Positions 278 through 25,089 of a stretch of 32,000 nt of DNA are shown here, in pieces. The stretch is from Desulfobulbus propionicus DSM 2032 (lineage in GTDB: Bacteria; Desulfobacterota; Desulfobulbia; Desulfobulbales; Desulfobulbaceae): the NCBI RefSeq assembly GCF_000186885.1, contig NC_014972.1:1530001-1562000 (forward strand), in the 5' to 3' direction. The first letter of the stretch is position 1. Each line of letters opens with the position of its first letter. Under the pieces are notes generated by a model. That model ran no database searches and was not told the origin of the DNA. It was given only the letters and a program-made list of their open reading frames with translations. The translations under genes and the position numbers were made by a program.

Positions 278-312
278 AAAAAAAAGCCGGGTCATTGACC
301 CGGCTTTTTTTT
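278..312. terminator. Bidirectional rho-independent terminator ending the kor-hdr operon
   Basis: The sequence is aaaaaaaa-GCCGGGTC-attg-GACCCGGC-tttttttt. An 8-bp GC-rich stem is flanked by an A-run and a T-run, so either strand reads as hairpin plus U-tract. It sits 21 nt beyond the hdrA stop (333). Confidence 0.75.
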
Positions 313-332
313 GTTCATGGATGGGGCTGTTC

Positions 333-2756
333 TTACAGTTTGCTGAGAATGTTCTGGGTTTCGGCGATTTCCTCGGCGGTCACGCTTTGCCGGATCTGTT
401 CCATTCGTTTCATGGTTTCGGCAAAACGGATGCCCTCGGCGGCGCTGATCCACTCCAGTTGCAACCGTTCCGGACGGATGCCGATCTTTTCCATCTTCTT
501 GTGGATGCGGGCCACCCGCTTCTCGGTCCAGTGGTTGGCGTCGATGTAATGGCAGTCGCCGATATGGCAGCCGCTGACCAGCACCACCGGCGCACCTTTG
601 CGGAAGCCTTCCCAGATGAACTTCTCATCCACCCGGCCCGAACACATCACCCGTACCAGGTGCACGTTGGCCGGATACTGCAACCGCGAGACACCGGCAT
701 AATCGGCGCCGGCATACGAGCACCAGTTGCAGGCAAAGGCGAGGATCTTCGACTCCGGCGCCGTATCGAGCATGGTGTCCACCTGACCAAGAATCTGGGT
801 GTCGGTGAAGTGGTTCATGCTGATAGCGTCGAACCGGCATTCGGCCGAGCAGGTGCCGCAGCCGGCGCAGGCCGCCGAATTGACCACCGCCGGCTTCTTG
901 TTCTTCACATCCACGGTGATCGCGCCATACGGACAGACCTCGGCGCACTTGCCGCAGGCCTTACACTTTTCGGCGATGATCGTCGAGGTGATTGGCTCGG
1001 TGGTGATCTCCCCTCTATGCATCACCCGAATCGCCCGCATGGCCGCAGCCGAGGCCTGGGTGACGCTGTCCTTAATGTCCTTGGGGCCCTCAGCGCAGCC
1101 GGCAAAGAAGATGCCACGGGTGGCGGCATCCACCGGCTGCAATTTGGGATGGGCTTCAAGGTAGAAACCGTCCGAGGTCAGCTGCAACCCCATGATCTCC
1201 TGCAAGCGCTGGGTCGAGGGCGCGGGTTTTATTCCCTGGGCCAGCACCAGCATGTCGAGGTCGTGAAATTCGAGTTTGCTAGTGGCAGCATTTTCCACCG
1301 CCACCCGCAGGCTGCCGTTATCAAGCTCCTCGACAGAGCCGGGCAGGCCGCGGATGTACTGGGCACCCATGCGGCGACTGCGGGTATAGAGATCTTCAAA
1401 CCCCTTGCCAAAGGCCCGGATGTCAATATAGAACACCTTGACCTCGACATCGGGATAATGCTCCTTGATGATGAAGGTCGATTTGATGGTGTTCATGCAG
1501 CAGATGTTGGAGCAGTAGTGGCCGCCCTTCTTGGCCGAGCGCGAGCCCACACACTGGATGAACCCAACCGATTTCGGGTGGTTTCTGTCCGAAGGCCGCA
1601 CCAGGGACCCTTTGGTCGGACCGCTGGCGTTGACCAACCGCTCGAATTCCAGGCTGGTCAGCACGTTGTCAAACCGGGTGTAACCGTACTCGTCCATTTC
1701 GGTCGGGTCGTAGGGCTGCAGGCCGGTGGCGACGATGATCGTGCCCACCTCCTCGATGATCTCCTCGTCCGACATGTGGAAATTGATGCAGCCCTTGGCG
1801 CAGACCTCGACGCATTTGGAGCACACCGCCGGGTTGTGGCCCAGGCACTCCTTGGCGTTGATCAGGTACGAGGAGGGCACCGCCTGAGGAAAGGGCGAGT
1901 AAATGGCCTTGCGCGATCCCAGCCCCATGTTGAACTCATCGGGCCGCACCACCGGGCAGACCTTGGCGCACTCACCGCAGGCCGTGCAGCTCGTCTCATC
2001 AACATAACGCGCCTTCTTAATGATTTTTACTTTGAAGTTACCGACGTATCCTTTTACATCGACCACTTCGCTCAACGTCAACAGCTTTATCCGTGGATGT
2101 CGACCGACATCCGTCATCTTAGGACCTAAGATTCAAATGGAGCAGTCCATCGTCGGGAAAGTCTTGTCGATCTGGGCCATGATGCCGCCGATGGAGGGGC
2201 TCTTCTCCACCAGGGTAACGTCATAGCCGCTGTCAGCCAGGTCGAGCGCCGCCTGGATCCCGGCCACGCCGCCGCCGATGACCAGGGTCTTCGGGGTCAG
2301 GGGGAGGGTGTCCTCGTGCAGCGGCTCCAGGTGGCGTACCCGGCTGATGGCCATGTTGACCAGGGTCTCGGCCTTGAGGGTCGCCCCCTCCTTGTCGTTC
2401 ATGTGCACCCAGGAGCATTGTTCGCGCAGGTTGGCCATATCGAGCATGTAGGGGTTGAGGCCCACCGCGTCGATCATCTTCTTGAAGGTCGCCTCATGGA
2501 GGCGCGGCGAGCAGGAGGCGATCACCACCCGGTCGAGGCCATTGTCGATGATGTCCTGCTTGATCTGCTGCTGCCCCGGCTCGGAACAGGCGTAGACGAT
2601 ATCCTTGGACACCACGACGCCGTCCTCGTTCTCCACGGTCTGGGCGACACGATGGCAGTCGACGGATTGGGCGATGTTGAGGCCGCAGTGGCAGACATAG
2701 ACGCCGATGCGGGGTTCCTGGTCGCCGGCGGGTTTGGCAGAAGTAGGTTTTGACAT
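333..2756 (-). CDS. hdrA: Heterodisulfide reductase subunit A fused to a C-terminal MvhD domain; predicted selenoprotein (807 aa, Sec at residue 208 encoded by TGA 2133..2135)
   Basis: Track ORFs 2133..2756 and 333..2117 share one frame and are separated only by a TGA plus 15 nt. Read-through gives ...IDKTFPTMDCSI-U-ILGPKMTDVGRHPRIKLLT..., the conserved HdrA segment.
- N-terminal part: Cys cluster (VYVCHCGLNI) and Rossmann motif VIGGGVAGIQAAL.
- Middle: ferredoxin motifs CTACGECAKVCP and CKACGKCAEVCP.
- C-terminus: MvhD-type ILAFACNWCSYAGAD...MCSGR...SGCHIGDCHY.
- GGAGAA RBS 6 nt upstream of the ATG at 2756. Confidence 0.85.
2096..2132 (-). promoter_or_regulatory. Candidate bacterial SECIS element downstream of the hdrA UGA
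   Basis: The mRNA after the UGA reads AUCUUAG-GUC-CUAAGAU (nt +1..+17, 7-bp stem), then AUGACG..., then GAUGUC-GGUC-GACAUC (nt +22..+37, 6-bp stem with a GGUC apical loop). The GGUC loop resembles the E. coli fdhF SECIS apex as I recall it. Folding was done by eye only. Confidence 0.45.
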
Positions 2757-2871
2757 GGTTGTTCTCCGAAAAAGCGTATGAGCTTGTTGGTCTATTCGTC
2801 TGTAGGATTTTGGTCGGGAGGGGTTCGTTGTTTGCCTCGCGGACCGGTCCCGCTACAGGTGATCGATCTTC

Positions 2872-4479
2872 TTATTCCCAGCGGATGGTCTGGGCGATAA
2901 CGCTGGTCAAATCCATCAGTTCGATGCTGAGCTGTTCGCGGCGGAAGGGGTCTTCCATGGCGCATTTGAGATGGATCTGGCATTTGGGGCAGGCGGTGAC
3001 CACCAGGTCGCTGCCGGTGGCGTGCGCCTGCTGAAGCCGTTTGACCTGCATGGCCTTGCTGTAGCTGTCGCAGCCGGTCCAGGCACAGTTGCCGCAGCAG
3101 ATCGAGGCACCGCCGGATTCCTTCATTTCCACGAATTGTTTGGGTTTGAGCCGTTTGAGCAGTTTGCGCGGCAAATCGACCCTCCCCTCCAGGCGGCCCA
3201 GGCGGCAGGAATCCTGGAAGGTGATCGCATGGTCAAACGGTTCGAAGCCGACGGCTCCCTTGTCAATCTGTTCTTCAAGGAAATCATAGAGATGGACCAC
3301 CTTGAATTTTGGTTCCAGCCCCTGCTCGGCATAGGTGGTGCGCAGGGTCATGAAACACTCGGGACAGGTGGTGATCACCGTCTCGATGCCCAGTTGATTG
3401 AGCTGGTCGACATTGAGCCGGGCCAGCCGTAGAAAGTTTTCCCGGTCGCCGGACCAGAGCAGGTCGTGGCCGCAGCAGCGCTCGTCGCTCAGCAGGCGGG
3501 GGGCGACGTCGAAAAAGTTCAGCAACCGCAGGCTGTCGATCAGAATCCGGTTGGTTTCCACTTCCATGCGCTTGCCGAAAAAAACATCGTAATAGGGAGC
3601 GCAACCGCCGAAAAACAGGGTGGTACTGTGCGGATCGACGCGAATGTCCTCGGGCAGCTCGGTCCATCGCTTGGGAGTGATCGAGGGCGAGCTCATGGAG
3701 CGCATCAACGAATGGAAAAAGCCGCCGTGCACCTCCTGGCCAGGGAGTTCGGTTTGCCGGTAAAGGTGGCGCAATTCCTTGATGAAGGCTGGAAAGTTGA
3801 CCGCCGAGGGGCAGCGCTCATAGCAGAGACCGCAGGTCAGGCAGGACCAGGCGTTTTCGCGCACGCCGGGCGCGTGGATGCCGCCGGTGATCACCGCCGA
3901 GGCAATGGCACGCGGCGAGAAGGATTTGCCGATCAGAGCCAGGGGGCAGGCCGAGGTGCATTTGCCGCAATCCTGGCAGGCGTGGATATCGTAGGTAGCG
4001 ACCAGCTGCTGCAGTTCCTGCTTGCAGGCGGCCACATCCGGGACCGGAACCACCGGCACGGGATCGATGCCGGCCGGCCCAAGGGCGCGAATATCGGAGC
4101 TGAACTCCTGGAGAAAGGCGAGCAGCTGCTCCGACTCTTCCGGGAGAAAGGCGGCGAAGCGCAACCGGTCACCGCCCAGGCCCATGATATCGAGCACCTT
4201 CTGCACGTCCTGGGTGTTGCGCTGGGAGGTGGCGGTGCCGCTGCCGTAGCGGCAGGTGCCTGGTTCGCAACCCACCAGGGCGACGCCGTCTGCGCCCTTG
4301 GCAAAAGCCTTGAGCATCATTGCCCGGTCGATGCGGCCGGTGCATGGAGTGCGAACCATGCGGATCTCGTCGGGAATGGGCCGGCGCTGATCCTGCAGGG
4401 TGAGGAAGGCGGCATGGGCCCCCCAGTTACAGAGAAAAAGAAGGATATTCAACTTGTTGTGACTGGCTTGATTATTCAT
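2872..4479 (-). CDS. MvhD-HdrC-HdrB fusion protein (535 aa): MvhD-like domain, 2x[4Fe-4S] ferredoxin domain and two CCG domains
   Basis: - The chosen start, MNNQASHNKLNILLFLCNWGAH..., overlaps the upstream stop within ATGAATAA. The track ORF extends to 4608, but that extension is an Ala/Pro/Arg-rich stretch overlapping the upstream gene.
- MvhD-like segment: LCNW...PCTGR...VGCEPGTCRY.
- HdrC-like motifs: CQDCGKCTSACP and CLTCGLCYERCP.
- HdrB-like CCG motifs: ERCCGHD...TTCPEC and SICCGNC...TACPKC. Confidence 0.8.
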   Translation of the reverse strand: MNNQASHNKLNILLFLCNWGAHAAFLTLQDQRRPIPDEIRMVRTPCTGRIDRAMMLKAFAKGADGVALVGCEPGTCRYGSGTATSQRNTQDVQKVLDIMGLGGDRLRFAAFLPEESEQLLAFLQEFSSDIRALGPAGIDPVPVVPVPDVAACKQELQQLVATYDIHACQDCGKCTSACPLALIGKSFSPRAIASAVITGGIHAPGVRENAWSCLTCGLCYERCPSAVNFPAFIKELRHLYRQTELPGQEVHGGFFHSLMRSMSSPSITPKRWTELPEDIRVDPHSTTLFFGGCAPYYDVFFGKRMEVETNRILIDSLRLLNFFDVAPRLLSDERCCGHDLLWSGDRENFLRLARLNVDQLNQLGIETVITTCPECFMTLRTTYAEQGLEPKFKVVHLYDFLEEQIDKGAVGFEPFDHAITFQDSCRLGRLEGRVDLPRKLLKRLKPKQFVEMKESGGASICCGNCAWTGCDSYSKAMQVKRLQQAHATGSDLVVTACPKCQIHLKCAMEDPFRREQLSIELMDLTSVIAQTIRWE

Positions 4480-7400
4480 GGACGCTGTCCTTGGAGAGCA
4501 ACTCCTCAAGGGCCTGTTCGAGAAAGGCCCGATTGCGGTAGGGACTGTCGGCGGCGCCGGTGGGGCAGACCGAGAGGCAGTTGCCGCAGCCCTTGCACAG
4601 GGCTTCATCGATGTGGGCGTGCCAGCCCCCCACGGTGTTGGCTTGCAGGGTCACCGCGTGATAGAGACAGACATTGGCGCAACGGCCGCAGCCGCGGCAC
4701 AGCTGGTCGTCGATGGCCGCGGTGAATCCCTTGGACTGGCGGGGGCCACGCGGCATGGCCGCCGCCACCATCACCGCCGCCGCCGTTCCCTTTTTTAGCT
4801 TGGAAACGTTGATGTCCGGCGGTTCGGCCAAATACAGGCCGGGCACCGAGGTGGCGCAGGGATAGGCAAAGGGGATGCCGGTGATCCCGCGCTCCTGCAT
4901 CAGCGGCTCGACCGGGGCGCTCGGCAGTCCTTCCTGGTGACTGTAGGCGATGCGCCGCCGGGCCTTTTCCCCGAGGATGACCGTGCCGGCCCGCAGGATC
5001 TGACTGTGGCCGTCGGATTCGATCAATATCTGAAAGTCACCCAAGGTGCCGCTGATGCCCTTGACGTTCCAGTCCGGGAAGTTGTGGATATTGGCATGAT
5101 CAACCAGATCGGTGAGCGGCTGCTCGGCGGTCCCGAAACGGAAGACCTCGTGATCGCTGTCCGCCAGCGTCAGGGCGCTGGTGATGGTCGCCTGGGAGTT
5201 GCCGATGACCGCGGCGGCAAAGTTGTAGTTGCGGTCCACCGTCGGCAGCGGCTTGAGGGTCAGGGTCCGCTTGATCGAGCGTTGCAGCAATCCCTTGAAC
5301 CGGTCCAGGGCCAATGCTGGATTGGATTCGACCAGCCGGAGAATCTCGCCGCGCAGGTTGCAGGTCTCGACCATGGAACGGCTGATGCCGGTACCGTGGA
5401 ACAGGTTGTTTTTCAACCGGCTGCGTTGATCGGTACAGGCGCTGCACACAAAATTGAGCGGGCAGCAGACGCAGGAGGCGAGCACCAGGCGGGTGATCCC
5501 CTTTTCCCGCACCGCATGGATGATGGCCTGGGAGCCTTCCTCCACGCAGGCCGAGGCGAGCATCTCGGTGTGGACGATGTCCGGGTCGGTGGCGGCCAGT
5601 TGTTCGAGGTAGTCGTTCATGCCTTCCAGCCAGCCCAGGCTGTCGTTGCAGCGGCAGACAAAAACACCGATGCGGATCTCCGGCGACAGGCCGGAGTCTG
5701 GCACCGAGACCGTGCGGCCGTGTCCCTTGGTCTTGTTGGAGGCGCCGCCCAGCAGCAGCATGGCACGGGCGGCGGCGTCAAAACCCCGCACGATCATGTC
5801 GTTGACATTGGGCCGCGCCGCCTTGGGCCCATAGGCGCGGATGATGTCGTCGCCCTTGATGTTGGGGGCGATGTTCGGATCGGCGACGATCACCGCGCCG
5901 CACTGTTCGACGACCTCGTCTTTTTCCTGGAAATGGTCGATGGCCTTGAGCGCGCCGCAGGCGGCGACGCACTGCAGGCATTCCGAGCACACGCCGCATT
6001 GCAGGCAACGGCTGGCCTCGGCCGCCATCTGGGATTGGGTGAAGCCCGTGGCCACTTCCTGAAAACTGTGCATTCGCGTGGCTGCCTGGAGTTCGGGCAC
6101 ACGGGTGCGCGGTTGCTTGGGCAGATCCTCGGGAATACAACGGAAATCCTTGGCGTTCGGCCGGGACACCGCACTCTCCTCGCGGATGCCGCTGAGGTCC
6201 GCGTGGATGGCACGCGCCGCCTTGCGCCCGGTGGCCATGGCCTTGACCACCGAGGAAGGACCGGAAACCGTGTCGCCGGCGGCGTAGACCCGGGCCATGG
6301 TGGTGTGCAACTCCTGATCGGTTTCGATGAAACCGCGTTCGCTGACCGCGATCCGGCCGCCGAAGCTCTTGGCGGTATAGCCGCCCACCTGGCCGATGGC
6401 CACGAAGGCGCGGTCAAAGGCACGTTGAACAGGTTGCTGCCCCTCGGCCACCACCGGCCAGGCGATGCCGCGGCTGTCCGGTTTACCCGGTTGGGTGCGC
6501 ATGCATTCCAGGTGACTGAAGCGGCCGTTTTCGCCCCGGAAGGCGACCACCTGGGTGGCGTCGATGATCGTCACCCCCTCCTCGACCGCCTCGCGGACCT
6601 CGTCCGGATCGGCCGGGATGTGTTCGGCATCGAACCAGGAAACGATGCTCACCTGGGCGCCCATGCGGGCCAGGGTACGGGCCAGGTCAAAGGCCGAGTT
6701 GCCGTCGCCGATCACCGCCACCTTTTCCGGTAGACTGGTCAGTGCCTCCCATTCCTTGCGCGCCAGGAACGCCAGGCATCCTTCCACTCCCGGCAGATCC
6801 TCGCCCTCGACACCCATCCGCCGGTCCTGCCAGGTGCCGGTGGAGAGGATCAGGGCATCGTGTTCCCGGGACAGACGATCAAGGTCGGCGGCCAGATCAA
6901 TGGGGTGATTGGCGACAAAGTTGACTCCCATCTGTTCGATCAGGTGGATCTCGCGGTCGAGAATGGCACGCGGCAGACGATGGGCGCCGATGCCGTAGCG
7001 GAGCAGTCCGCCGACCTCGGGCTCCTTTTCAAAGACCGTGACCCCGTAGCCCTTGCGCGCCAGGTCGGCCGCGGCGGCGATCCCCGCCGGACCGGAACCG
7101 ATCACCGCGATGTTCTCGGGCCGTTTCGCCACGGTTTGCTCCGCCGTGATCTGAGCGGCGGCCTCGGTGCTTTCGTAGTCGGCGAGAAAACGCTTGATCG
7201 CCCGAATCGACACCGGATCGTCGACTCCGCCGCGACGACAGGCTTCCTCGCAGGGATGGGTGCAGACCCGGCCGCAAATGCCGGGCAGGACATTGTCCCG
7301 GCGGATCAGGGCCAGGGCCTCGGCATATCTGCCTTGGGCGGCCAGGGCGATGTAGCCTTGGGCATTGACCCCCAGCGGACAGTTTTCCTGGCAGAGCGGC

Positions 7401-7852
7401 TGGCGACGCTTGTCGATCCAAGGTCGGCCAGGCAGGCTGGTGCGGGCGTTGTAGCGCAATGCCCGGCCGCCATCCGGATGGTTCACGGGGCAGGCGGCCA
7501 CGCATTTGCCGCACAGGGTGCAGCGGTCGGTGTCGATAAAGGTCTGCTCCTGATCGATGCGGACACTGAATCCCTGAGAGGTGTGTTTGATAGAGCTAAT
7601 TCGTGCCGGCAGCAGGGTGCGGATCGAGGTGTTGCGGATGATTCGGATCAGGCCCGGTCGATGGGCAAAATTGAAGGTCAAGCCGGAGGGCAGGCGGTAT
7701 TCTTCGGCCGCCAGTTTGCGGTCCAGGTCGGGATCGCCATCGATCAGGGTTACTGGAATACCCAGTTCACCCAGCTTGTTGGTGGCGGCGATGCCCTCCG
7801 GGGTGGCGCCGGCGACGATCACCCGATACAATCGTTCTTTCTGTCGTTTCAT
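4472..7852 (-). CDS. Large HdrA-like/GltD(NfnB)-like multidomain flavo-iron-sulfur oxidoreductase (HdrL-like, 1126 aa)
   Basis: - N-terminal degenerate Rossmann motif: YRVIVAGATPEG.
- Ferredoxin motif: CTLCGKCVAACP.
- Glutamate-synthase-small-subunit-type module: RYAEALALIRRDNVLPGICGRVCTHPCEEACRRG, IAVIGSGPAGIAAAADLARKGYGVTVFEKEPEVGGLLRYGI, VAVIGDGNSAFDLA, VYAAGD.
- HdrA-type Cys-rich modules: CLQCGVCSECLQCVAACGA, IGVFVCRCNDSLGW, LVLASCVCCPLNFVCSAC.
- C-terminal 2x[4Fe-4S] motifs: CRGCGRCANVC and CKGCGNCLSVCP.
- The start ATG overlaps the korC stop (ATGA). Confidence 0.8.
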   Translation of the reverse strand: MKRQKERLYRVIVAGATPEGIAATNKLGELGIPVTLIDGDPDLDRKLAAEEYRLPSGLTFNFAHRPGLIRIIRNTSIRTLLPARISSIKHTSQGFSVRIDQEQTFIDTDRCTLCGKCVAACPVNHPDGGRALRYNARTSLPGRPWIDKRRQPLCQENCPLGVNAQGYIALAAQGRYAEALALIRRDNVLPGICGRVCTHPCEEACRRGGVDDPVSIRAIKRFLADYESTEAAAQITAEQTVAKRPENIAVIGSGPAGIAAAADLARKGYGVTVFEKEPEVGGLLRYGIGAHRLPRAILDREIHLIEQMGVNFVANHPIDLAADLDRLSREHDALILSTGTWQDRRMGVEGEDLPGVEGCLAFLARKEWEALTSLPEKVAVIGDGNSAFDLARTLARMGAQVSIVSWFDAEHIPADPDEVREAVEEGVTIIDATQVVAFRGENGRFSHLECMRTQPGKPDSRGIAWPVVAEGQQPVQRAFDRAFVAIGQVGGYTAKSFGGRIAVSERGFIETDQELHTTMARVYAAGDTVSGPSSVVKAMATGRKAARAIHADLSGIREESAVSRPNAKDFRCIPEDLPKQPRTRVPELQAATRMHSFQEVATGFTQSQMAAEASRCLQCGVCSECLQCVAACGALKAIDHFQEKDEVVEQCGAVIVADPNIAPNIKGDDIIRAYGPKAARPNVNDMIVRGFDAAARAMLLLGGASNKTKGHGRTVSVPDSGLSPEIRIGVFVCRCNDSLGWLEGMNDYLEQLAATDPDIVHTEMLASACVEEGSQAIIHAVREKGITRLVLASCVCCPLNFVCSACTDQRSRLKNNLFHGTGISRSMVETCNLRGEILRLVESNPALALDRFKGLLQRSIKRTLTLKPLPTVDRNYNFAAAVIGNSQATITSALTLADSDHEVFRFGTAEQPLTDLVDHANIHNFPDWNVKGISGTLGDFQILIESDGHSQILRAGTVILGEKARRRIAYSHQEGLPSAPVEPLMQERGITGIPFAYPCATSVPGLYLAEPPDINVSKLKKGTAAAVMVAAAMPRGPRQSKGFTAAIDDQLCRGCGRCANVCLYHAVTLQANTVGGWHAHIDEALCKGCGNCLSVCPTGAADSPYRNRAFLEQALEELLSKDSVHE

Positions 7853-8451
7853 TGCGCCTTGGCTCCTGTCTGGCCGGCGGCCCGTTTTTCCCGACCCTTG
7901 AGGGTGGACAGACCGTAATCAAATCCCTTGGTGAAGGCCTCGATGTTGCGTTCCTCGGTGCCCTTGGGCACTGACTGGCGGATGGTGGCCTGGGCGGCCT
8001 CGCTGGAAACCGCCTTGGTGATGGCGGTACAGAAACCGAGCATGATGATGTTGGCCATCATCTTGTTGCCCAGATTCTCGGCCATGCGGGTGGCCGCGAT
8101 GGCGAAATGGTCGCAGGGCGCGTTTTCCGGGTTGACCAGGTCTTGGTCGACCAGGAGTACCGACTCGGGCACCAGGGCTGGCGCGAATTTGTCGTAGCCG
8201 GCCTGGGACATGGCCACCAGGATCTTGGGGGTGTTGACGTAGGGGTAATGGATCGGGACGTCGGAGATGATAACCTGGGCATTGCAGGCGCCGCCGCGCG
8301 ATTCCGGGCCATAGGCCTGGACCAGGGTGGATTCCTTCTTGTCGCCGAGCGAGGCCGCCATGCCGAGGATCCGACCGGCCAGAATGATGCCCTGGCCGCC
8401 GAAACCGGTGACGATGATCTCGGTCTGGCTGGATGGTGCGTTTTTGCTCAT
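7849..8451 (-). CDS. korC: 2-oxoacid:ferredoxin oxidoreductase gamma subunit (probably 2-oxoglutarate-type)
   Basis: The sequence IIVTGFGGQGIILAGRILGMAA...YGPESRGG is the characteristic gamma-subunit motif. Size is 200 aa. It is the last gene of a delta-alpha-beta-gamma order like OorDABC/KorDABC. Substrate specificity is not provable from sequence alone. Confidence 0.8.
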   Translation of the reverse strand: MSKNAPSSQTEIIVTGFGGQGIILAGRILGMAASLGDKKESTLVQAYGPESRGGACNAQVIISDVPIHYPYVNTPKILVAMSQAGYDKFAPALVPESVLLVDQDLVNPENAPCDHFAIAATRMAENLGNKMMANIIMLGFCTAITKAVSSEAAQATIRQSVPKGTEERNIEAFTKGFDYGLSTLKGREKRAAGQTGAKAQ

Positions 8452-8482
8452 GGTGTTTCCCGGAATGGAGAAGAGAAAAGGA

Positions 8483-9331
8483 TCAATCGTCGTTGCATGG
8501 ACGGCAGATTTGATTGTACCGATCGTCGCAGGTGGTGCGATCGATGTCGATGAACGTGCCGATCACCACCCCCTTGGCGAAATCGATGTCCGCCTGGGCC
8601 GGATCGGCACCGTTCTTGATGATCGTCCGATCCTGGTAGAGTTTGAGGGTATCGAGGGGCTTTTCCTTGTTGCGCCGGCCGTAATTGATGGGGCAGGGCG
8701 AGAGCACCTCGATGAAGGAAAATCCCTTGCGGCTGATGGCTTCGTTGATTGCCGTGGTTAGGTCCCGGGTCTGGAGAATGGTCCAGCGAGCCACATAGGA
8801 GGCGCCGGCGGCATAGGCCAGCAGCGGCAGGTTGAACGGCGCGTCCGGGTTGCCCAGCGGCGTGGTGGTCGATTTGGCCATGCTCGGCGTGGTGGCCGCC
8901 ACCTGGCCGCCGGTCATGCCGTAGGTCAGGTTGTTGACGCAGATCACGGTCAGGTCCATGTTGCGCCGCGCCGCATGGATGAAGTGATTGCCGCCTATGG
9001 CGAACAGGTCGCCGTCACCGGAAAAGACGATCACCTTGAGCTCCGGGTTGGCCATCTTGATGCCGGTGGCAAAGGGAATGGCCCGGCCGTGGGTGGTGTG
9101 AAAGGAGTCGAGCTTGATGTACCCGGCTCCACGCGCCGAGCAGCCAATGCCCGAAACCATGGTGAACTTGTTGTAGGGGATGCCGGTGGCCTTGATGGCG
9201 CTCAGGCACGAAGAAAACACCGTGCCGATGCCGCAACCCGGACACCAGATATGGGGGATGCGGTCGGTGCGGATCAGGTCGTCCAGCGGATGTTCGGGCT
9301 GCTTGGCCAATTTTTTCGGATTGGTGGTCAT
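8483..9331 (-). CDS. korB: 2-oxoacid:ferredoxin oxidoreductase beta subunit (TPP-binding)
   Basis: The start MTTNPKKLAKQPEHPL...IWCPGCGIG carries the beta-subunit Cys motif. The TPP motif is VFSGDGDLFAIGGNHFIHAARRN. The ATG lies 4 nt after the korA stop. The track ORF's extra 34 N-terminal residues overlap korA and were rejected. Confidence 0.85.
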   Translation of the reverse strand: MTTNPKKLAKQPEHPLDDLIRTDRIPHIWCPGCGIGTVFSSCLSAIKATGIPYNKFTMVSGIGCSARGAGYIKLDSFHTTHGRAIPFATGIKMANPELKVIVFSGDGDLFAIGGNHFIHAARRNMDLTVICVNNLTYGMTGGQVAATTPSMAKSTTTPLGNPDAPFNLPLLAYAAGASYVARWTILQTRDLTTAINEAISRKGFSFIEVLSPCPINYGRRNKEKPLDTLKLYQDRTIIKNGADPAQADIDFAKGVVIGTFIDIDRTTCDDRYNQICRPCNDD

Positions 9332-9335
9332 AAGC

Positions 9336-10481
9336 TTAAAATTTCTCCTGAATGCACTCCAGCACCTTGTCCGGGTGAATGATTTTGCCGCCGGCACTGC
9401 CGACCAGATAGGCTTGGGCTTGGCCGCCGGCACAACGCTCGACCTCGTAGTGGACCTGACCGAGGTTGATTTCCACGGTGATGAAGCCCTTGACCCGGGC
9501 CGCGATCTCGCGGATCAGCTTTTCGGGAAAGGGCCAGACCGTGACCAACCGCAACAGTCCGGCCTTGTAGCCCATGGCCCGGGCCTGGTCGACCGCGCTC
9601 AGGCCGGTGCGCACCGAGATGCCGTAGCTGACGATGACGATGTCGGCATCCTCCATCCGGTAACTCTCGGTCTCGATGATGTCGTCGAGGTTATTGCGGA
9701 TTTTGCCCTTGATCCGCGCCATCATCTCTTCCTGGGCCTCGACGGTCATCGAAGGGTAGCCGCGCTCGTCGTGGGTCAGGCCGGTCACGTGGATGTTGTA
9801 GCCGTCACCAATGGCTGGCATGGGGGCCACGCCGTTGGCTCCCGGTTCGTACAGCCTGAACCGGTCCTTGCGGCCGGTGGGTTTGGGCCGGTCGATCAGG
9901 CGGATCTTGCTGGCTTCGGGGATGACCACCTTCTCGCTCATGTGGCCGACAATTTCATCGGCCATGAGCAGCACCGGCACCCGGTATTTCTCGCTCAGGT
10001 TGAAGGCGCGGATGGTCTGGTAAAAACAATCCTGGGGCGAGGAGGGGGCCAGGGCAATCAGTTCGTAGTCGCCGTGCGAGCCCCAGCGGGCCTGCATCAT
10101 GTCGCCTTGGCCGGTCTGGGTGGGCAGGCCGGTGGACGGGCCGGTGCGCTGCACATTGACGATCACGCAGGGGGTTTCGGTGCACACGGCCAGGCCCAGG
10201 TTCTCCATCATCAAGCTGAATCCGGGGCCCGAGGTGGCGGTCATTGACTTGACCCCGGTCCAGGCCGCGCCGAGAATCGAGGCGATGGCCGCGATCTCGT
10301 CTTCCATCTGGATAAAGGTGCCGCCGATGTCGGGCAGGCGTTCGGCCATGTGTTCGGCGATCTCGGTGGCCGGGGTGATCGGATAGGCGCCGAAGAATTT
10401 GCATCCGGCCGCGATGGCCCCCTCGGCGCAGGCCACGTCGCCGGTGATGTAATGTTCGCCGGTAAGCACGGCAGGTTTCAT
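9336..10481 (-). CDS. korA: 2-oxoacid:ferredoxin oxidoreductase alpha subunit
   Basis: Supporting motifs are ITGDVACAEGAIAAGCKFFGAYPITPATEI, TATSGPGFSLMMENLG and PCVIVNVQRTGPSTGLPT, the typical alpha-subunit signature. Size is 381 aa. Confidence 0.9.
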   Translation of the reverse strand: MKPAVLTGEHYITGDVACAEGAIAAGCKFFGAYPITPATEIAEHMAERLPDIGGTFIQMEDEIAAIASILGAAWTGVKSMTATSGPGFSLMMENLGLAVCTETPCVIVNVQRTGPSTGLPTQTGQGDMMQARWGSHGDYELIALAPSSPQDCFYQTIRAFNLSEKYRVPVLLMADEIVGHMSEKVVIPEASKIRLIDRPKPTGRKDRFRLYEPGANGVAPMPAIGDGYNIHVTGLTHDERGYPSMTVEAQEEMMARIKGKIRNNLDDIIETESYRMEDADIVIVSYGISVRTGLSAVDQARAMGYKAGLLRLVTVWPFPEKLIREIAARVKGFITVEINLGQVHYEVERCAGGQAQAYLVGSAGGKIIHPDKVLECIQEKF

Positions 10482-10502
10482 ATCAGGTCTCTCGCGGAAA
10501 AA

Positions 10503-10778
10503 TTATTTGGAAACGGCTGCTGGCTCGGTCTCCACCGAATAGATGGCGAACTCGGGGCAGATGATCTCACAGTAGTGGCAGTTGACGCATTCGCCGGGCT
10601 TGGTGACCACCGGCGGGTGGTACCCCTTGCGGTTGAACTTGTCGGAAAACTGGAGGATGTCCTTGGGGCAGAACTCGATGCAGTAGCCGCAGCCCTTGCA
10701 TCGGTCGTCGATGATGTACACCGTGCCCCGGGTGACTTGGATGTCCTGGGCGTCAAGAGGTACTCGCCAAAATGCCAT
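10503..10778 (-). CDS. korD: 2-oxoacid:ferredoxin oxidoreductase delta subunit (2x[4Fe-4S] ferredoxin)
   Basis: A 91-aa protein with CKGCGYCIEFCP and CVNCHYCEIICP. It is the first gene of the operon, 21 nt upstream of korA. Confidence 0.8.
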   Translation of the reverse strand: MAFWRVPLDAQDIQVTRGTVYIIDDRCKGCGYCIEFCPKDILQFSDKFNRKGYHPPVVTKPGECVNCHYCEIICPEFAIYSVETEPAAVSK

Positions 10779-10892
10779 GTTGCCTGCCTGTGTGTGGTAA
10801 GGGTTGCCTTCGTGCCGTTGTCACGGCGGGAGAAAGGATTGCCGCGAAGGAAAAACAGGAGACTGGATGGCCTCCGCACTCCCAAGCCTGCA

Positions 10893-10921
10893 ACTAAACT
10901 GGAAATAGATGTAGATGTCAA
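10893..10921 (-). promoter_or_regulatory. Candidate sigma70-type promoter for the kor-hdr operon
   Basis: The minus strand reads TTGACA (10916..10921), a 17-nt spacer, then TTTAGT (10893..10898). This would give a leader of about 105 nt before the korD ATG. Pattern match only. Confidence 0.35.
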
Positions 10922-11182
10922 GGGCGGAAACGAAAGAGGCGGGGGAAAGTTGAGACACGGTCGGATTTTTGTCGACGGTGTCTCTGATTTTTCTCCTGTG
11001 CTCTGTTTTGGTGGCCATGGGCTTCCAGCGGACCGGCACGCGGCGAGGACGGGTATTGACCGTCCGTATCGCGACAGACGGGAAACAACCGGTTGTGGCC
11101 TGTCCGTTTGGCTGGGGTGTGCTCCTTGTGGGTGCCGAAGTTTTCACGGCGCATAAAAAGGACCGGGTTGTCTTGTTGCGGG

Positions 11183-11210: not shown

Positions 11211-11273
11211 GACACGAAAATAAAATCTATCGTGTTTGTGTTGCCCACCCCCTCACCTTTCAAGGAGACGCCC

Positions 11274-12191: not shown

Positions 12192-12234
12192 CAGGCGGCT
12201 CTGGACCGATGTCCAAGGCCGCCTGCCTGTTTTC
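12192..12234. terminator. Bidirectional hairpin terminator between the convergent TSUP and glycosidase-like genes
   Basis: CAGGCGGC-tc-TGGAC-cgat-GTCCA-ag-GCCGCCTG forms 8+5 bp of stem, followed by cctgtttt on the plus strand and ttgttattt on the minus strand. Confidence 0.6.
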
Positions 12235-12250
12235 CGCTGCTCGATGCTGT

Positions 12251-13510: not shown

Positions 13511-13724
13511 GGCAAGGAAAAGAGGGTTGTCGGGATGACCGGAGCTGGCCGAGCTGTCGGGGTTCGGCTACCGGCGTGATCGGTGTTTACTGTAAAGGAA
13601 GAGGCGGGGAAGATAAAGCACTTGTTGGCGTCGATCCGGGAACAGGAGGCAAAGTACCGTAATCGACGGCCGCTGCCGGATGGACCGGCATCCGGCCAGG
13701 GGCGGGGAGAGGCACAACCTTGTT

Positions 13725-13753: not shown

Positions 13754-13815
13754 GACCAGCAAGCATGCGGGCCGGTCGGCATCGGCCCGCGGACCCCCAA
13801 CCGAAGGAGGACAAG

Positions 13816-16477: not shown

Positions 16478-16574
16478 TTCCTTAGAGGGGGTGAAGAAGA
16501 GCGGGGCTAGCTGCTTGATTTGTTTCAAGGAGTATAGGCCGAACCGGGGTGTTCGCAAAGGCCTTTTTCGTTCT

Positions 16575-20075: not shown

Positions 20076-20093
20076 AGTCGTGCAGGGCAGGGT

Positions 20094-25080: not shown

Positions 25081-25089
25081 AGGTACCGC

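What the first reader, a model, noticed from the sequence alone, without database searches (positions are those of the whole stretch)
333..10921. Seven-gene operon translationally couples a 2-oxoacid:ferredoxin oxidoreductase to an Hdr-like electron-bifurcation module
All seven genes are on the minus strand with short or overlapping junctions:
- korD to korA: 21-nt gap.
- korA to korB: 4-nt gap.
- korB to korC: 31-nt gap.
- korC stop and HdrL-like start: overlap as ATGA (7849..7852).
- HdrL-like stop and MvhD-HdrCB start: overlap as ATGAATAA (4472..4479).
- MvhD-HdrCB to hdrA: 115-nt gap.

There is one candidate promoter upstream of korD and one strong terminator after hdrA (278..312).

A ferredoxin-reducing enzyme (KOR) is therefore co-translated with proteins carrying an NAD(P)H/GltD-like module, two HdrA-type flavin sites, two MvhD domains and the HdrB CCG disulfide-reducing site. 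This is the component list expected for a flavin-based bifurcating or confurcating complex linking 2-oxoglutarate/ferredoxin, NAD(P)H and a still unknown disulfide or sulfur substrate. I do not know of a characterised Kor-Hdr complex. The physiological acceptor is not deducible from this window.
Basis: inference. Interest (0 to 1): 0.7.

Follow-up and report, generated by a model that had tools for sequence, protein, structure and literature searches.

The report
Oxoacid oxidoreductase operon wired to Hdr
A sulfate-reducing bacterium (Desulfobulbus-like) carries a seven-gene operon, conserved gene-for-gene across several orders of its phylum, that joins a CO2-releasing/fixing 2-oxoacid:ferredoxin oxidoreductase to a selenium-containing electron-splitting (Hdr/Nfn-type) module; the gene cluster has been noticed before but the enzyme has never been studied.

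Summary

Two corrections:
- hdrA (333-2756) is one gene only if the in-frame TGA at 2133-2135 is read as selenocysteine. That TGA and a downstream SECIS hairpin occur in 62 of 62 orthologues.
- HdrL does not carry a second HdrA-type flavin site. It is an NfnB-like flavin and nucleotide module set inside two degenerate HdrA-like copies.

The arrangement is not chance. The gene order was collinear in 80 of 80 related loci from Desulfobulbales, Desulfobacterales, Syntrophobacterales, Syntrophales and Desulfatiglandales. The korC-hdrL junction is the tightest in the cluster, at most 10 nt in 76 of 77 loci. No flanking gene is conserved. A promoter with an invariant TTGACA lies upstream of korD.

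"KOR" is not established. The enzyme belongs to the Kor/Oor clade but misses every 2-oxoglutarate-specific cut-off.

The cluster was already named "HdrAL/POR (Sfum_0012-0018)" in Syntrophobacter fumaroxidans, and I found no biochemical study of it.

The most likely function is a hard-wired electron-bifurcating complex. It would link a pyridine nucleotide, a high-potential acceptor at the HdrB site, and the oxoacid/acyl-CoA+CO2 couple.

It is a new variant of a known kind. Interest is moderate to high.

The parts
10916..10921 (-). -35 promoter hexamer TTGACA upstream of korD
   Evidence: Read. The TTGAC core is present in 17 of 17 aligned upstream regions of related Desulfobulbaceae loci, as TTGACA in 11 and TTGACT in 6. 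It lies about 127-165 nt before the korD ATG in most of them.
10893..10898 (-). -10-like hexamer TTTAGT, 17 nt after the -35 hexamer
   Evidence: TTTAnT is conserved at the same spacing in most orthologous regions. The consensus scan did not list it because position 2 is not A.
10952..10984 (-). Conserved inverted repeat GAGACAC-N19-GTGTCTC, flanked by an A-run and a T-run, about 30 nt upstream of the -35 hexamer. It is a candidate operator or an insulating terminator.
   Evidence: The ends of the repeat are conserved in most of the 17 aligned loci, while the interior varies and pairs only in part. Its function is unresolved.
10779..10892 (-). 5' leader of about 105 nt, with a hairpin followed by a U-run at 10848-10875
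   Evidence: The terminator-like site was listed. The leaders of orthologues fold into hairpins near the 5' end. This was not tested further.
10503..10778 (-). korD: delta subunit of the 2-oxoacid:ferredoxin oxidoreductase, with two [4Fe-4S] motifs
   Evidence: Fer4 and Fer4_7 hits. The motifs CKGCGYCIEFCP and CVNCHYCEIICP are in the translation. The best NCBIfam hits, OGOR_delta and OorD, fall below their cut-offs.
9336..10481 (-). korA: alpha subunit
   Evidence: POR_N and PFOR_II hits. It passes NF006412, the generic 2-oxoacid:acceptor oxidoreductase alpha model, at 570 bits against a cut-off of 411. The best solved relative is 1yd7_A, at 405 bits. The YPITP motif is present.
8483..9331 (-). 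korB: beta subunit binding TPP and a [4Fe-4S] cluster
   Evidence: TPP_enzyme_C hit. The CPGCG and GDGD...N motifs are in the translation.
7849..8451 (-). korC: gamma subunit. Its stop codon overlaps the hdrL start as ATGA (7849-7852).
   Evidence: POR domain hit. The junction with hdrL is at most 10 nt in 76 of 77 orthologous loci, with a median of -4.
4472..7852 (-). HdrL-like protein. An NfnB-like module (FAD, nucleotide site, two [4Fe-4S]) spans residues about 150-560. It sits inside two degenerate HdrA-like copies that carry about 5-6 further [4Fe-4S] motifs.
   Evidence: Pfam hits. Matches to solved structures and Foldseek hits to StnC, NfnABC and NfnB at 33-35% identity. BLASTP against hdrA. 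Invariant Cys columns and invariantly degenerate Rossmann motifs. AF2 model with pLDDT 72.7.
2872..4479 (-). MvhD-HdrC-HdrB fusion, with a [2Fe-2S] site, two [4Fe-4S] sites and two CCG non-cubane cluster sites. Its start overlaps the hdrL stop as ATGAATAA (4472-4479).
   Evidence: FlpD, Fer4_8 and 2x CCG hits. The 4 MvhD and 8 HdrC cysteines are invariant in 118 orthologues, and 9 of the 10 CCG-motif cysteines are invariant, the tenth being Cys in 117 of 118.
333..2756 (-). hdrA-mvhD fusion of the HdrA2 type. It is a selenoprotein and the only subunit with a canonical HdrA flavin site.
   Evidence: It passes NF040770 (HdrA2) at 1197 bits against a cut-off of 1100. It scores 782 bits against the solved HdrA 5odc_A. 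The GGGVAG motif is present.
2133..2135 (-). In-frame TGA read as selenocysteine, in the motif MDCSI-U-ILGPKM
   Evidence: It aligns to Cys197 of 5odc_A. TGA is at this codon in 62 of 62 orthologues.
2095..2112 (-). SECIS-type hairpin GGATGTCGGTCGACATCC, starting 20 nt after the TGA
   Evidence: The hairpin folds. It is almost invariant at the nucleotide level in 62 loci, and where the stem does vary the T-A pair is mostly replaced by C-G or by a G-U wobble. No Rfam family matches it.
278..313 (-). Intrinsic terminator, starting 19 nt after the hdrA stop codon
   Evidence: Sequence read. Folding energy -29.3 kcal/mol, z = -7.3.

Best explanation
**What it is.** One transcription unit runs from the promoter at about 10893-10921 to the terminator at about 278-313. 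It encodes the subunits of a single soluble iron-sulfur flavoprotein complex.

**What the sequence shows**
- A catalytically complete four-subunit 2-oxoacid:ferredoxin oxidoreductase (delta-alpha-beta-gamma) of the Kor/Oor clade.
- HdrL, an NfnB-type flavin and nucleotide module embedded in a flavin-less, cluster-rich pseudo-HdrA scaffold.
- An MvhD-HdrC-HdrB fusion in which the cofactor cysteines are conserved across 118 orthologues (all but one strictly invariant).
- A genuine HdrA-MvhD selenoprotein.

**Inferred wiring**
- The low-potential end of the HdrA flavin is not released to free ferredoxin. It is connected through the iron-sulfur chains of HdrL and KorD to the TPP site of the oxidoreductase.
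- The mid-potential branch is the pyridine-nucleotide site of HdrL.
- The high-potential branch is the HdrB-type CCG site. Its partner is most likely a DsrC-type disulfide or trisulfide, or another high-potential carrier.

**Inferred reaction**
- The overall reaction is reversible: 2 NAD(P)H + acceptor(ox) + acyl-CoA + CO2 <-> 2 NAD(P)+ + acceptor(red) + 2-oxoacid + CoA.
- I favour the bifurcating, carboxylating direction as the physiological one. In that case the complex would be a 2-oxoacid synthase driven by NAD(P)H together with an exergonic acceptor reduction.
- This is the bacterial counterpart of the methanogen supercomplexes in which Hdr feeds formylmethanofuran dehydrogenase directly.

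**How likely each step is**
- One functional unit: about 0.85.
- A physical complex with direct wiring: about 0.55.
- The carboxylating direction: about 0.5 of that.
For: **Synteny and coupling**
- Gene order is identical in 80 of 80 loci. HdrL identity ranges from 85% down to 56%, and the record titles span at least five orders. 49 loci are complete.
- The korC-hdrL gap is at most 10 nt in 76 of 77 loci, with a median of -4. That is tighter than korD-korA, korA-korB or korB-korC.
- The hdrL-hdrCB junction has a median of -4.
- No flanking gene is shared across orders, and no ferredoxin or dsrC gene lies in or next to the cluster.

**Transcription signals**
- A conserved promoter is found only upstream of korD.
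- The hdrCB-hdrA spacer conserves only a GGAGAA ribosome-binding site.
- A strong terminator follows hdrA.

**Cofactor sites intact**
- Oxidoreductase motifs.
- HdrC, HdrB and MvhD cysteines conserved in 118 orthologues: 21 of 22 invariant, the other Cys in 117 of 118.
- hdrA scores 782 bits against the solved bifurcating HdrA and passes the HdrA2 model.
- The selenocysteine is kept in 62 of 62 orthologues.
- The core of HdrL matches the bifurcating subunits of Nfn, NfnABC and Stn.

**Precedents**
- HdrA2B2C2 couples ferredoxin, a two-electron carrier and a disulfide. Its authors predicted bacterial homologues that use NADH and DsrC (PMC5296606).
- Hdr complexes wired directly to a CO2-fixing enzyme are listed (PMC13518236, PMC13580544).
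- Two bifurcation modules are coupled in one complex in class II benzoyl-CoA reductase.
Against: - There are no transcript, protein or activity data for this locus.
- The only proteomic statement found says the orthologous S. fumaroxidans complex "was not detected" on propionate, whether grown with sulfate, with fumarate or in syntrophy. It is therefore not a constitutive catabolic enzyme in that organism.
- Physical association cannot be tested with the tools available, because no multimer prediction was possible.
- Substrate specificity of the oxidoreductase is unresolved.
- The nucleotide site lacks the NADPH-type YRR motif.
- The CCG site need not reduce a disulfide.
- The direction of the reaction rests on thermodynamic reasoning alone.
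- The 115-nt hdrCB-hdrA spacer, which ranges from 2 to about 400 nt in orthologues, could hide a non-consensus promoter or a processing site.
- The HdrL model is only of moderate confidence, with pLDDT 72.7 and pTM 0.50.
Confidence: 0.5

Rival explanations
1. The complex is the same, but it runs physiologically in the oxidative direction and does not conserve energy by bifurcation. The oxidoreductase acts as an electron-input module. Oxidation of the 2-oxoacid would deliver electrons at about -500 mV through KorD and HdrL to HdrA, and on to the HdrB site for DsrC reduction. The NfnB-like site would serve as a second outlet to NAD(P)+. This would be a ferredoxin-independent 2-oxoacid:DsrC/NAD(P)+ oxidoreductase that feeds carbon-oxidation electrons straight into sulfite reduction.
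For: - HdrA2B2C2, whose NCBIfam model hdrA passes, catalyses plain ferredoxin-dependent heterodisulfide reduction as well as bifurcation.
- The host organisms are sulfate reducers. The window itself carries sat.
- Desulfobulbus and Syntrophobacter oxidise pyruvate in propionate catabolism (established knowledge).
- The synteny evidence fits this reading equally well.
Against: - The S. fumaroxidans orthologue was not detected during propionate oxidation with sulfate, which is when such a route would be useful.
- An all-downhill reaction does not explain why two bifurcation-type flavin modules and a selenocysteine are conserved.
- The enzyme is of the Kor/Oor clade rather than the Por clade.
Confidence: 0.3
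2. The genes are co-regulated but form two separate enzymes. An ordinary oxidoreductase would reduce a soluble ferredoxin. A separate HdrL-HdrCB-HdrA complex, analogous to FlxABCD-HdrABC, would then use that ferredoxin pool together with NAD(P)(H) and DsrC. In this reading the operon reflects stoichiometric co-expression only.
For: - Operon membership alone does not prove a complex.
- KorD is a standard delta subunit that normally docks free ferredoxin.
- HdrL-type proteins occur in other contexts without an oxidoreductase, for example next to dsrABC or fdh in Desulfobacterium autotrophicum.
- L009 carries a second, stand-alone kor-like gene set.
Against: - The korC-hdrL stop-start overlap is the best conserved junction in the cluster. 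That is hard to explain for two independent enzymes.
- No ferredoxin gene travels with the cluster in any of the 80 loci.
- This HdrL subfamily was never seen without kor.
Confidence: 0.15
3. The adjacency is fortuitous, and the kor and hdr genes serve unrelated pathways.
For: None beyond the general fact that neighbouring genes can be unrelated.
Against: - Gene order is collinear in 80 of 80 loci across several orders, while the flanks differ.
- The coding overlaps are conserved.
Confidence: 0.02

Closest known systems
"HdrAL/POR" gene cluster of Syntrophobacter fumaroxidans (Sfum_0012-0018; Sedano-Nunez et al. 2018, PMC5947623)
   Same: [quoted passage not shown]
- Syntrophobacterales loci (L059, L073, and Desulforhabdus amnigena L081) carry exactly the window's gene order.
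- It is almost certainly the orthologous cluster.
   Different: - It is mentioned in a single sentence and was not detected in the proteome, so nothing is known of its function.
- I could not compare the Sfum sequences directly.
- The paper labels the enzyme POR, whereas family scores place the window's enzyme in the Kor/Oor clade.
HdrA2B2C2 of Methanosarcina acetivorans (Yan et al. 2017, PMC5296606)
   Same: - It has the same HdrA-MvhD fusion, and the window's hdrA passes the HdrA2 NCBIfam model.
- It has the HdrB and HdrC cluster sites.
- It couples ferredoxin, a two-electron hydride carrier and a disulfide.
   Different: - It uses F420H2 and CoM-S-S-CoB.
- It has no NfnB-like subunit and no oxidoreductase partner.
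- HdrB and HdrC are separate proteins with no MvhD fused to them.
- Its HdrA2 is not a selenoprotein, as far as I know.
MvhAGD-HdrABC and the Hdr-Fmd/Fwd supercomplexes of methanogens (PDB 5ODC; PMC13518236, PMC13580544)
   Same: - hdrA scores 782 bits against 5odc_A over residues 13-663, and all motifs are kept.
- The concept is the same: the low-potential electrons of HdrA are channelled directly into a CO2-fixing enzyme rather than to free ferredoxin.
   Different: - The input there is a hydrogenase or formate dehydrogenase, where here it is an NfnB-like nucleotide module.
- The CO2-fixing partner there is formylmethanofuran dehydrogenase joined through a polyferredoxin. Here it is a TPP-dependent oxidoreductase.
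- Direct wiring is inferred here, not shown.
NfnAB, NfnABC and StnABC electron-bifurcating transhydrogenases (PDB 5JCA, 9BOV, 9N5U, 8OH5)
   Same: - HdrL residues about 150-560 align end to end with the NfnB-type subunit, at 33-35% identity and Foldseek E-values down to 1e-39.
- The Fer4_20 cluster cysteines and the FAD GxGxxG motif are included in the match.
   Different: - In HdrL the module is inserted into the ferredoxin domain of a degenerate HdrA-like fold.
- The YRR residues are replaced by an invariant SWF.
- The partners are Hdr-type proteins rather than NfnA or HydB-like subunits.
Class II benzoyl-CoA reductase BamBCDEFGHI (bioRxiv 10.64898/2026.04.10.717634)
   Same: - It is also a Desulfobacterota complex.
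- It couples an HdrA-type module to a second bifurcation-type module and to a catalytic enzyme that works at very low potential.
- BamE is a fused HdrA dimer in which only one flavin bifurcates, which is comparable to HdrL's two HdrA-like copies.
- It uses selenocysteine.
   Different: - The catalytic module is a tungsten AOR-type enzyme, the second module is HydBC-like, and the high-potential acceptor is ETF.
- Both HdrA-like halves of BamE still bind FAD. HdrL's motifs suggest that neither of its halves does.
FlxABCD-HdrABC of Desulfovibrio vulgaris (Ramos et al. 2015; cited)
   Same: It is proposed to carry out NADH-dependent bifurcation to ferredoxin and DsrC in a sulfate reducer. The logic is the same: an NAD(P)H input, an HdrA flavin and an HdrBC output.
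   Different: - The NADH module is of a different type (FlxA).
- The ferredoxin is free, there is no oxidoreductase, and the subunits are separate.

Membership tests
Four-subunit 2-oxoacid:ferredoxin oxidoreductase (delta-alpha-beta-gamma) | Alpha subunit with POR_N and PFOR_II domains and the YPITP motif | tested here: met
   Pfam E-values of 5.9e-73 and 5.7e-21. It passes NF006412 at 570 bits against 411. AYPITPATE is in the translation.
Four-subunit 2-oxoacid:ferredoxin oxidoreductase (delta-alpha-beta-gamma) | Beta subunit with a TPP-binding domain (GDG...N) and the Cys ligands of a [4Fe-4S] cluster | tested here: met
   TPP_enzyme_C at 4.2e-35. CPGCG and FSGDGDLFAIGGNHFIHAARRN are in the translation.
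Four-subunit 2-oxoacid:ferredoxin oxidoreductase (delta-alpha-beta-gamma) | Gamma (POR) domain, and a delta subunit with two CxxCxxCxxxCP motifs | tested here: met
   POR at 1.8e-31 and Fer4_7 at 1.1e-10. Both motifs were read.
2-oxoglutarate:ferredoxin oxidoreductase (KOR/OGOR/Oor) in the strict sense | Scores above the curated cut-offs of the 2-oxoglutarate-specific models for the alpha, beta, gamma and delta subunits | tested here: not met
   - alpha, NF007206: 386 bits against 579.
- beta, NF007207: 247 against 364.
- gamma, NF006275: 82 against 216.
- delta, NF042987: 65 against 125 (all).

The enzyme is still clearly closer to Kor/Oor types than to Por. It scores 280 bits against 8ys5 and 230 against 6n2n, compared with 69 against PorA 9bt4.
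2-oxoglutarate:ferredoxin oxidoreductase (KOR/OGOR/Oor) in the strict sense | Measured preference for 2-oxoglutarate/succinyl-CoA | not testable with these tools
   This needs an enzyme assay.
HdrA, the bifurcating flavoprotein of heterodisulfide reductase (HdrA2 subclass with fused MvhD) | Full-length match above the curated cut-off, with a C-terminal MvhD (FlpD) domain | tested here: met
   For hdrA (333-2756):
- NF040770 at 1197 bits against a cut-off of 1100.
- FlpD at 1.6e-47 over residues 671-788.
- 782 bits against 5odc_A.
HdrA, the bifurcating flavoprotein of heterodisulfide reductase (HdrA2 subclass with fused MvhD) | GxGxxG FAD motif together with the CSxC(U) motif (Cys194 and Cys197 of 5ODC) | tested here: met
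   hdrA has VIGGGVAG and MDCSI-U, aligned to 5odc_A.
   - The aligned positions read VAGATPEG and GLTFNF in copy 1, and VIGNSQAT in copy 2.
- G15, A16, P18, G20, G884 and S886 are invariant across 61 orthologues, so the degeneracy is itself conserved.
- Actual flavin content was not measured.
HdrB/HdrC (CCG-domain disulfide reductase module) | Two CCG domains (CXnCCGXmCXXC) and two HdrC-type [4Fe-4S] motifs | tested here: met
   - CCG Pfam hit at 6.9e-25 with two stretches.
- The relevant cysteines are C293, 335, 336, 372 and 375; C425, 461, 462, 497 and 500; and C168-178 and C213-223.
- All are invariant in 118 orthologues, with a single exception at C375.
HdrB/HdrC (CCG-domain disulfide reductase module) | Reduction of a disulfide (CoM-S-S-CoB, DsrC or another) | not testable with these tools
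   There is no assay. A counter-example exists: BamD passes its electrons to ETF.
NfnB/GltD-type flavin and nucleotide module | Fer4_20 two-cluster domain plus an FAD and NAD(P)H double Rossmann fold | tested here: met
   - Fer4_20 at 4.4e-25 and Pyr_redox_2 at 7e-33.
- 276 bits against NfnABC 9n5u_A.
- Foldseek E-value of 8.6e-39 against StnC.
NfnB/GltD-type flavin and nucleotide module | The YRR...R residues after beta-2 of the nucleotide domain. That these contact the 2'-phosphate of NADPH is my own recollection of the NfnB/GltD structures. | tested here: not met
   All five solved relatives have YRR at this position, while HdrL has SWF. S405, W406 and F407 are invariant in 61 orthologues.
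HdrL (Strittmatter et al. 2009: an HdrA/glutamate-synthase-like fusion with a nucleotide site) | A large soluble protein that combines HdrA-like regions with a GltD-like NAD(P)H domain, and is encoded next to an MvhD | tested here: met
   The definition is quoted. An MvhD domain is encoded in the next gene.
Bacterial selenoprotein gene | An in-frame TGA at a position occupied by Cys in homologues, conserved across orthologues | tested here: met
   The codon aligns to Cys197 of 5odc_A. TGA is present in 62 of 62 loci. NCBI annotates the D. amnigena gene as a single product of 811 aa.
Bacterial selenoprotein gene | A SECIS stem-loop shortly downstream of the UGA | tested here: met
   - The hairpin at 2095-2112 starts 20 nt after the TGA.
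- Its synonymous sites are frozen in 62 loci, and most stem variants keep the pair as C-G or as a G-U wobble.
- No Rfam model matches it.
- The single-sequence folding z-score is not significant, at -1.27.
Bacterial selenoprotein gene | selA, selB, selD and tRNA-Sec present in the genome | not testable with these tools
   None of these lies in the window, and no tRNA was found there. The rest of the genome is not available.
Operon (single transcription unit) | Same strand, short or overlapping junctions, one promoter and one terminator | tested here: met
   
Operon (single transcription unit) | A single primary transcript covering korD to hdrA | not testable with these tools
   No transcript data are available.

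The most novel reading that the evidence does not exclude
The seven proteins form a bacterial "electron-bifurcating CO2-fixing supercomplex". Two different bifurcation-type flavins, NfnB-type in HdrL and HdrA-type with selenocysteine, would work in series. Together they would push electrons from a pyridine nucleotide below the ferredoxin potential and straight into a TPP enzyme. The result would be 2-oxoglutarate or pyruvate made from acyl-CoA and CO2 without any free ferredoxin, paid for by reduction of DsrC or another high-potential carrier. This would be a previously unrecognised way of driving reductive carboxylation in sulfate reducers and syntrophs.
Probability: 0.25. Interest if true: 0.85.

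Novelty: new variant of a known kind. Interest (0 to 1): 0.55.

Why it matters
2-oxoacid:ferredoxin oxidoreductases sit at the entry and exit of central carbon metabolism in anaerobes. Their carboxylating direction needs electrons at about -500 mV. How sulfate reducers and syntrophs living at the thermodynamic limit supply or dispose of such electrons is only partly understood.

A complex that hard-wires such an enzyme to an Hdr/Nfn-type bifurcation module would:
- add a new class of output or input to the HdrA family;
- link carbon fixation or oxidation directly to the DsrC and NAD(P)H pools;
- extend the "bifurcase plugged into a CO2-fixing enzyme" principle from methanogens to bacteria.

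The system is easy to approach experimentally. The cluster is strictly conserved and self-contained, it depends on selenium, and it occurs in cultured strains:
- Desulfobulbus rhabdoformis and Desulfobulbus alkaliphilus;
- Desulfogranum species;
- Desulfoprunum benzoelyticum;
- Desulforhabdus amnigena;
- Syntrophobacter fumaroxidans.

There is also a practical point. Gene callers that ignore selenocysteine split hdrA into two genes.

Tried and rejected
- **Consensus promoter and terminator scan.**
  - It listed neither the real terminator nor the conserved promoter.
  - Its overall hit counts were no higher than in shuffled sequence.
  - I replaced it with direct folding and phylogenetic footprinting.
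- **Rfam.**
  - The whole window at gathering threshold gave nothing.
  - The SECIS region at E <= 10 gave only a chance SAM-SAH hit on the wrong strand.
- **Single-sequence folding of the SECIS region.** It was not significant, with z = -1.27. The case for the SECIS rests on conservation.
- **Literature.**
  - Pereira et al. 2011 (Front Microbiol 2:69) is the paper I expected to describe this cluster, but it is not held. My recollection of it is therefore unverified.
  - The Joule 2019 OGOR structure paper is not held either, so I could not check substrate-determining residues.
  - A whole-word search for "HdrL" returned mostly machine-learning papers.
- **Eighth conserved gene.** I looked for a ferredoxin, dsrC or CoA ligase travelling with the cluster and found none.
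- **AlphaFold2 model of HdrL and Foldseek against the PDB.**
  - The model was of moderate confidence.
  - The search only re-found the NfnB-like core and added little beyond the sequence analysis.
  - I did not use the inter-domain arrangement.
- **Fused KorC-HdrL proteins.** I considered whether any exist and found none. A stop codon separates the two genes in every locus where the junction could be measured (77 loci).
- **Rest of the window.** I checked whether it gives metabolic context. Only sat marks a sulfate reducer, and nothing there is functionally tied to the cluster.

Full report
**1. Observation**

| Gene | Coordinates |
|---|---|
| korD | 10503-10778 |
| korA | 9336-10481 |
| korB | 8483-9331 |
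| korC | 7849-8451 |
| HdrL-like | 4472-7852 |
| MvhD-HdrC-HdrB fusion | 2872-4479 |
| hdrA-mvhD | 333-2756 |

The junctions recompute exactly:
- gaps of 21, 4 and 31 nt within the kor genes;
- an ATGA overlap at 7849-7852;
- an ATGAATAA overlap at 4472-4479;
- a 115-nt gap before hdrA.

Pfam gives the expected domains for every protein.

The terminator after hdrA folds at -29.3 kcal/mol. Its z-score is -7.3, and none of 200 shuffles folds as well.

One thing was missing from the finding. hdrA is interrupted by an in-frame TGA at 2133-2135, so it is a single gene only if that codon is read as selenocysteine.

**2. Selenocysteine**

- The TGA lies in the motif MDCSI-U-ILGPKM and aligns to Cys197 of the solved Methanothermococcus HdrA, 5odc_A.
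- All 62 orthologous hdrA genes that I could read carry TGA at this codon.
- The hairpin GGATGTCGGTCGACATCC (window 2095-2112) starts 20 nt after the TGA.
  - It is almost invariant at the nucleotide level.
  - Where the stem does vary, the T-A pair is mostly replaced by C-G or by a G-U wobble.
  - That is the signature of a bacterial SECIS element.
- Rfam has no matching family.
- NCBI annotates the Desulforhabdus amnigena orthologue as one protein of 811 aa. JGI and Logan gene calls split it into 206 and 599 aa.

**3. Is the arrangement conserved?**

An alignment of HdrL homologues was used to scan one genome per GTDB species. The 80 best loci come from:
- Desulfobulbus and other Desulfobulbaceae (64-85% HdrL identity);
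- Desulfobacteraceae and other Desulfobacterales, Syntrophobacterales, Syntrophales and Desulfatiglandales;
- Ca. Desulfatibia and Eth-SRB1 (56-60% for these and the preceding group).

tblastn with the seven window proteins gave these results:
- Order and strand are identical in 80 of 80 loci.
- 49 loci hold all seven genes. The rest are incomplete, and in those I inspected the missing genes lie beyond the end of a short contig. No other gene intervenes in any locus.
- The korC-hdrL junction is at most 10 nt in 76 of 77 loci, with a median of -4. That is tighter than any junction inside the kor genes.
- The hdrL-hdrCB junction has a median of -4.
- The hdrCB-hdrA spacer is variable, with a median of 76 nt.
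- Clustering of the flanking ORFs found no gene shared across orders. In particular there is no ferredoxin and no dsrC.

The seven genes are therefore a self-contained module that moves, or is retained, as a block.

**4. Transcription signals**

Upstream of korD lies a 498-bp divergent intergenic region. The neighbouring gene is a plus-strand TauE/SafE-family membrane protein at 11277-12188.

I aligned 17 Desulfobulbaceae upstream regions.
- The TTGAC core of the -35 element (window TTGACA, 10916-10921) is present in all 17, as TTGACA in 11 and TTGACT in 6.
- In most of them a TTTAnT element follows 17-18 nt later (window TTTAGT, 10893-10898). This gives a 5' leader of about 105 nt.
- About 30 nt further upstream there is a conserved inverted repeat, GAGACAC-N19-GTGTCTC, flanked by A and T runs. 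It could be an operator or an insulating terminator, and I could not decide between the two.

In contrast, the hdrCB-hdrA spacer conserves only a GGAGAA ribosome-binding site. This pattern fits one promoter and one terminator. No transcript data exist to confirm it.

**5. What the proteins are**

*Oxidoreductase*
- All hallmark motifs are present: YPITP, CPGCG, GDG...N and two CxxCxxCxxxCP.
- KorA passes the generic NCBIfam model for 2-oxoacid:acceptor oxidoreductase alpha.
- All four subunits fall below the 2-oxoglutarate-specific cut-offs.
- Solved relatives rank as follows:

| Solved structure | Bits |
|---|---|
| P. furiosus "2-keto acid" alpha subunit, 1yd7 | 405 |
| 2-oxoglutarate synthase, 8ys5 | 280 |
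| Magnetococcus OGOR, 6n2n | 230 |
| Sulfolobus OFOR | 153 |
| PorA | 69 |

- So the enzyme belongs to the Kor/Oor clade, but its substrate is unproven.

*hdrA*
- It is a textbook HdrA with a fused MvhD.
- It scores 782 bits against 5odc_A and passes the HdrA2 model at 1197 bits against 1100.

*The fusion protein*
- It has four MvhD cysteines, eight HdrC cysteines and two complete CCG motifs.
- All of these are invariant in 118 orthologues, apart from one position that is Cys in 117 of 118.

*HdrL*
- It is the unusual subunit.
- Residues about 150-560 are an NfnB-type module. It matches StnC (8oh5), NfnABC (9bov, 9n5u) and NfnB (5jca, 4ylf) at 33-35% identity.
- That module is inserted between the two cluster motifs of the "inserted ferredoxin domain" of a first HdrA-like copy. 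HdrL residues 10-127 correspond to HdrA 156-273, and residues 621-657 correspond to HdrA 311-343.
- A second HdrA-like copy follows. Its N-terminal domain is residues 725-903, and its C-terminal ferredoxin domain is residues 994-1096.
- In both copies the FAD fingerprint is degenerate, reading GATPEG and GNSQAT where hdrA has GGGVAG. The CSxC motif is absent. This degeneracy is itself invariant across 61 orthologues.
- The cluster therefore most likely carries one HdrA-type flavin and one NfnB-type flavin, not two HdrA-type flavins.
- The nucleotide site keeps GxGxxA but replaces the YRR of all five solved relatives by an invariant SWF. NADPH specificity should therefore not be assumed.

**6. 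Mechanism**

*Shown*
- The sequences contain intact binding motifs for every cofactor needed to carry electrons between four sites: a TPP site, a pyridine-nucleotide flavin, an HdrA flavin and an HdrB-type non-cubane cluster site.
- The genes are conserved as a translationally coupled block.

*Inferred*
- The proteins form one complex.
- The low-potential arm of HdrA is wired through the HdrL and KorD clusters to the oxidoreductase.
- The nucleotide site forms the mid-potential branch, and the CCG site forms the high-potential branch.

*Direction*
- I favour the bifurcating, carboxylating direction: NAD(P)H, together with reduction of DsrC or another high-potential acceptor, drives acyl-CoA + CO2 to the 2-oxoacid. 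There are three reasons.
  - A confurcating oxidation would have to consume reduced thiols, which makes little sense in a sulfate reducer.
  - An all-downhill oxidation would not explain two conserved bifurcation-type modules.
  - The S. fumaroxidans orthologue was not detected during propionate catabolism.
- This choice is reasoning, not evidence. The oxidative reading is a serious rival, since HdrA2B2C2 also catalyses plain ferredoxin-dependent disulfide reduction.
- A looser model, with two co-expressed enzymes that communicate through free ferredoxin, is possible. It explains the conserved korC-hdrL overlap poorly.

**7. Comparison with what is known**

- The adjacency itself is in the literature. 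Sedano-Nunez et al. [quoted passage not shown]
- HdrL was defined by Strittmatter et al. 2009.
- I recall that Pereira et al. 2011 also tabulated such clusters, but that paper is not held, so this remains unverified.
- None of the searches found a biochemical or structural study of an oxidoreductase-Hdr complex.
- The closest characterised systems are:
  - HdrA2B2C2;
  - the methanogen Hdr-Fmd/Fwd supercomplexes;
  - Nfn, NfnABC and Stn;
  - class II benzoyl-CoA reductase. There, two bifurcation modules are coupled, a fused HdrA dimer has only one bifurcating flavin, and the HdrB-like subunit reduces ETF rather than a disulfide.

**8. Verdict**

The details need correcting: the KOR label, the number of HdrA-type flavins, the nucleotide and disulfide assumptions, and the missed selenocysteine.
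- The gene cluster is already noted in the literature but has not been characterised. Relative to characterised systems it is a new variant of the Hdr-type bifurcating complexes.
- Interest is 0.55.
  - A specialist would not be astonished that the cluster exists.
  - Several features make it an attractive and tractable target: the strict conservation, the selenium dependence, the unusual HdrL architecture, and the possibility of a bacterial bifurcase plugged directly into a CO2-fixing TPP enzyme.

Noticed in passing
window 2133-2135 and 2095-2112 (minus strand): hdrA contains an in-frame TGA (selenocysteine, aligned to Cys197 of 5odc_A) followed by a SECIS-type hairpin. Both are conserved in 62 of 62 orthologues. 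Gene callers that ignore selenocysteine split the gene into 206 and 599 aa (L082, L083).
   Followed up: yes
window 10952-10984 (minus strand): An inverted repeat, GAGACAC-N19-GTGTCTC, is flanked by an A-run and a T-run about 30 nt upstream of the -35 hexamer. Its ends are conserved in most of the 17 Desulfobulbaceae loci, and its interior pairs only in part. It could be a regulator binding site or a bidirectional insulating terminator.
   Followed up: partly
window 10848-10875 (minus strand): The 5' leader of korD has a hairpin followed by a U-run (GGAGGCCATCCAGTCTCC TGTTTTTCC). Leaders of orthologues also fold into 5'-proximal hairpins. It may be an attenuator or a stabiliser. There is no Rfam match.
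   Followed up: partly
window 11277-12188 (+) and 11212-11235: A divergently transcribed TauE/SafE-family membrane protein gene (Pfam 1.6e-37) has its own palindrome, ACACGAT...TCGTGT, just upstream. The palindrome is conserved in six related loci (window, L004, L005, L008, L029, L030).
   Followed up: partly
HdrL residues 405-407 (window about 6632-6640, minus strand): The YRR motif that follows beta-2 of the nucleotide domain in all five solved NfnB-type relatives is replaced by SWF. SWF is invariant in 61 orthologues, so the nucleotide specificity, or even the ligand, may differ from NADPH.
   Followed up: partly
window 12200-13700: About 1.5 kb has long ORFs on both strands (for example 12251-13510 on the minus strand, 419 aa) but no Pfam match at E <= 0.01. 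The coding status is unclear.
   Followed up: no
window 13765-15162 (+): A class I pyridine-nucleotide-disulfide oxidoreductase (Pyr_redox_2 plus a dimerisation domain) lies 3 kb from the cluster on the opposite strand. It is probably unrelated, but it is a disulfide-handling flavoenzyme.
   Followed up: no
window 15194-31050: Other genes in the window:
- UDP-glucose dehydrogenase-like, 15194-16582 (-).
- Radical-SAM and PTPS pair (queE/queD-like), 16575-18006 (-).
- ComM/YifB-like Mg-chelatase ATPase, 18546-20075 (+).
- PAS histidine kinase with a receiver domain, 20094-22799 (-).
- Type III restriction-modification pair, 23272-27738 (+).
- TOBE/HTH (ModE-like) genes, 27860-29612 (-).
- ATP sulfurylase (sat), 29770-31050 (+).
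   Followed up: no
L009: 21410-23393: A Desulfobulbus MAG carries a second, stand-alone kor-like gene set (korD, korA and korB at 39-49% identity) about 4 kb downstream of hdrA. The Hdr-linked oxidoreductase is therefore a specialised paralogue.
   Followed up: no
L025 and L026: One Desulfobulbaceae MAG (CAXXDG01) holds the whole cluster on two different contigs, with identical coordinates and identities. This is either a recent duplication or an assembly artefact.
   Followed up: no
L001, L014, L019 and others: hdrCB-hdrA spacer: The variable spacer before hdrA often contains long inverted repeats without T-runs, for example AATCTTGAATAATTGAATTATTCAAGATT in L014. These may be RNA processing or stability elements that tune the HdrA dosage.
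   Followed up: no
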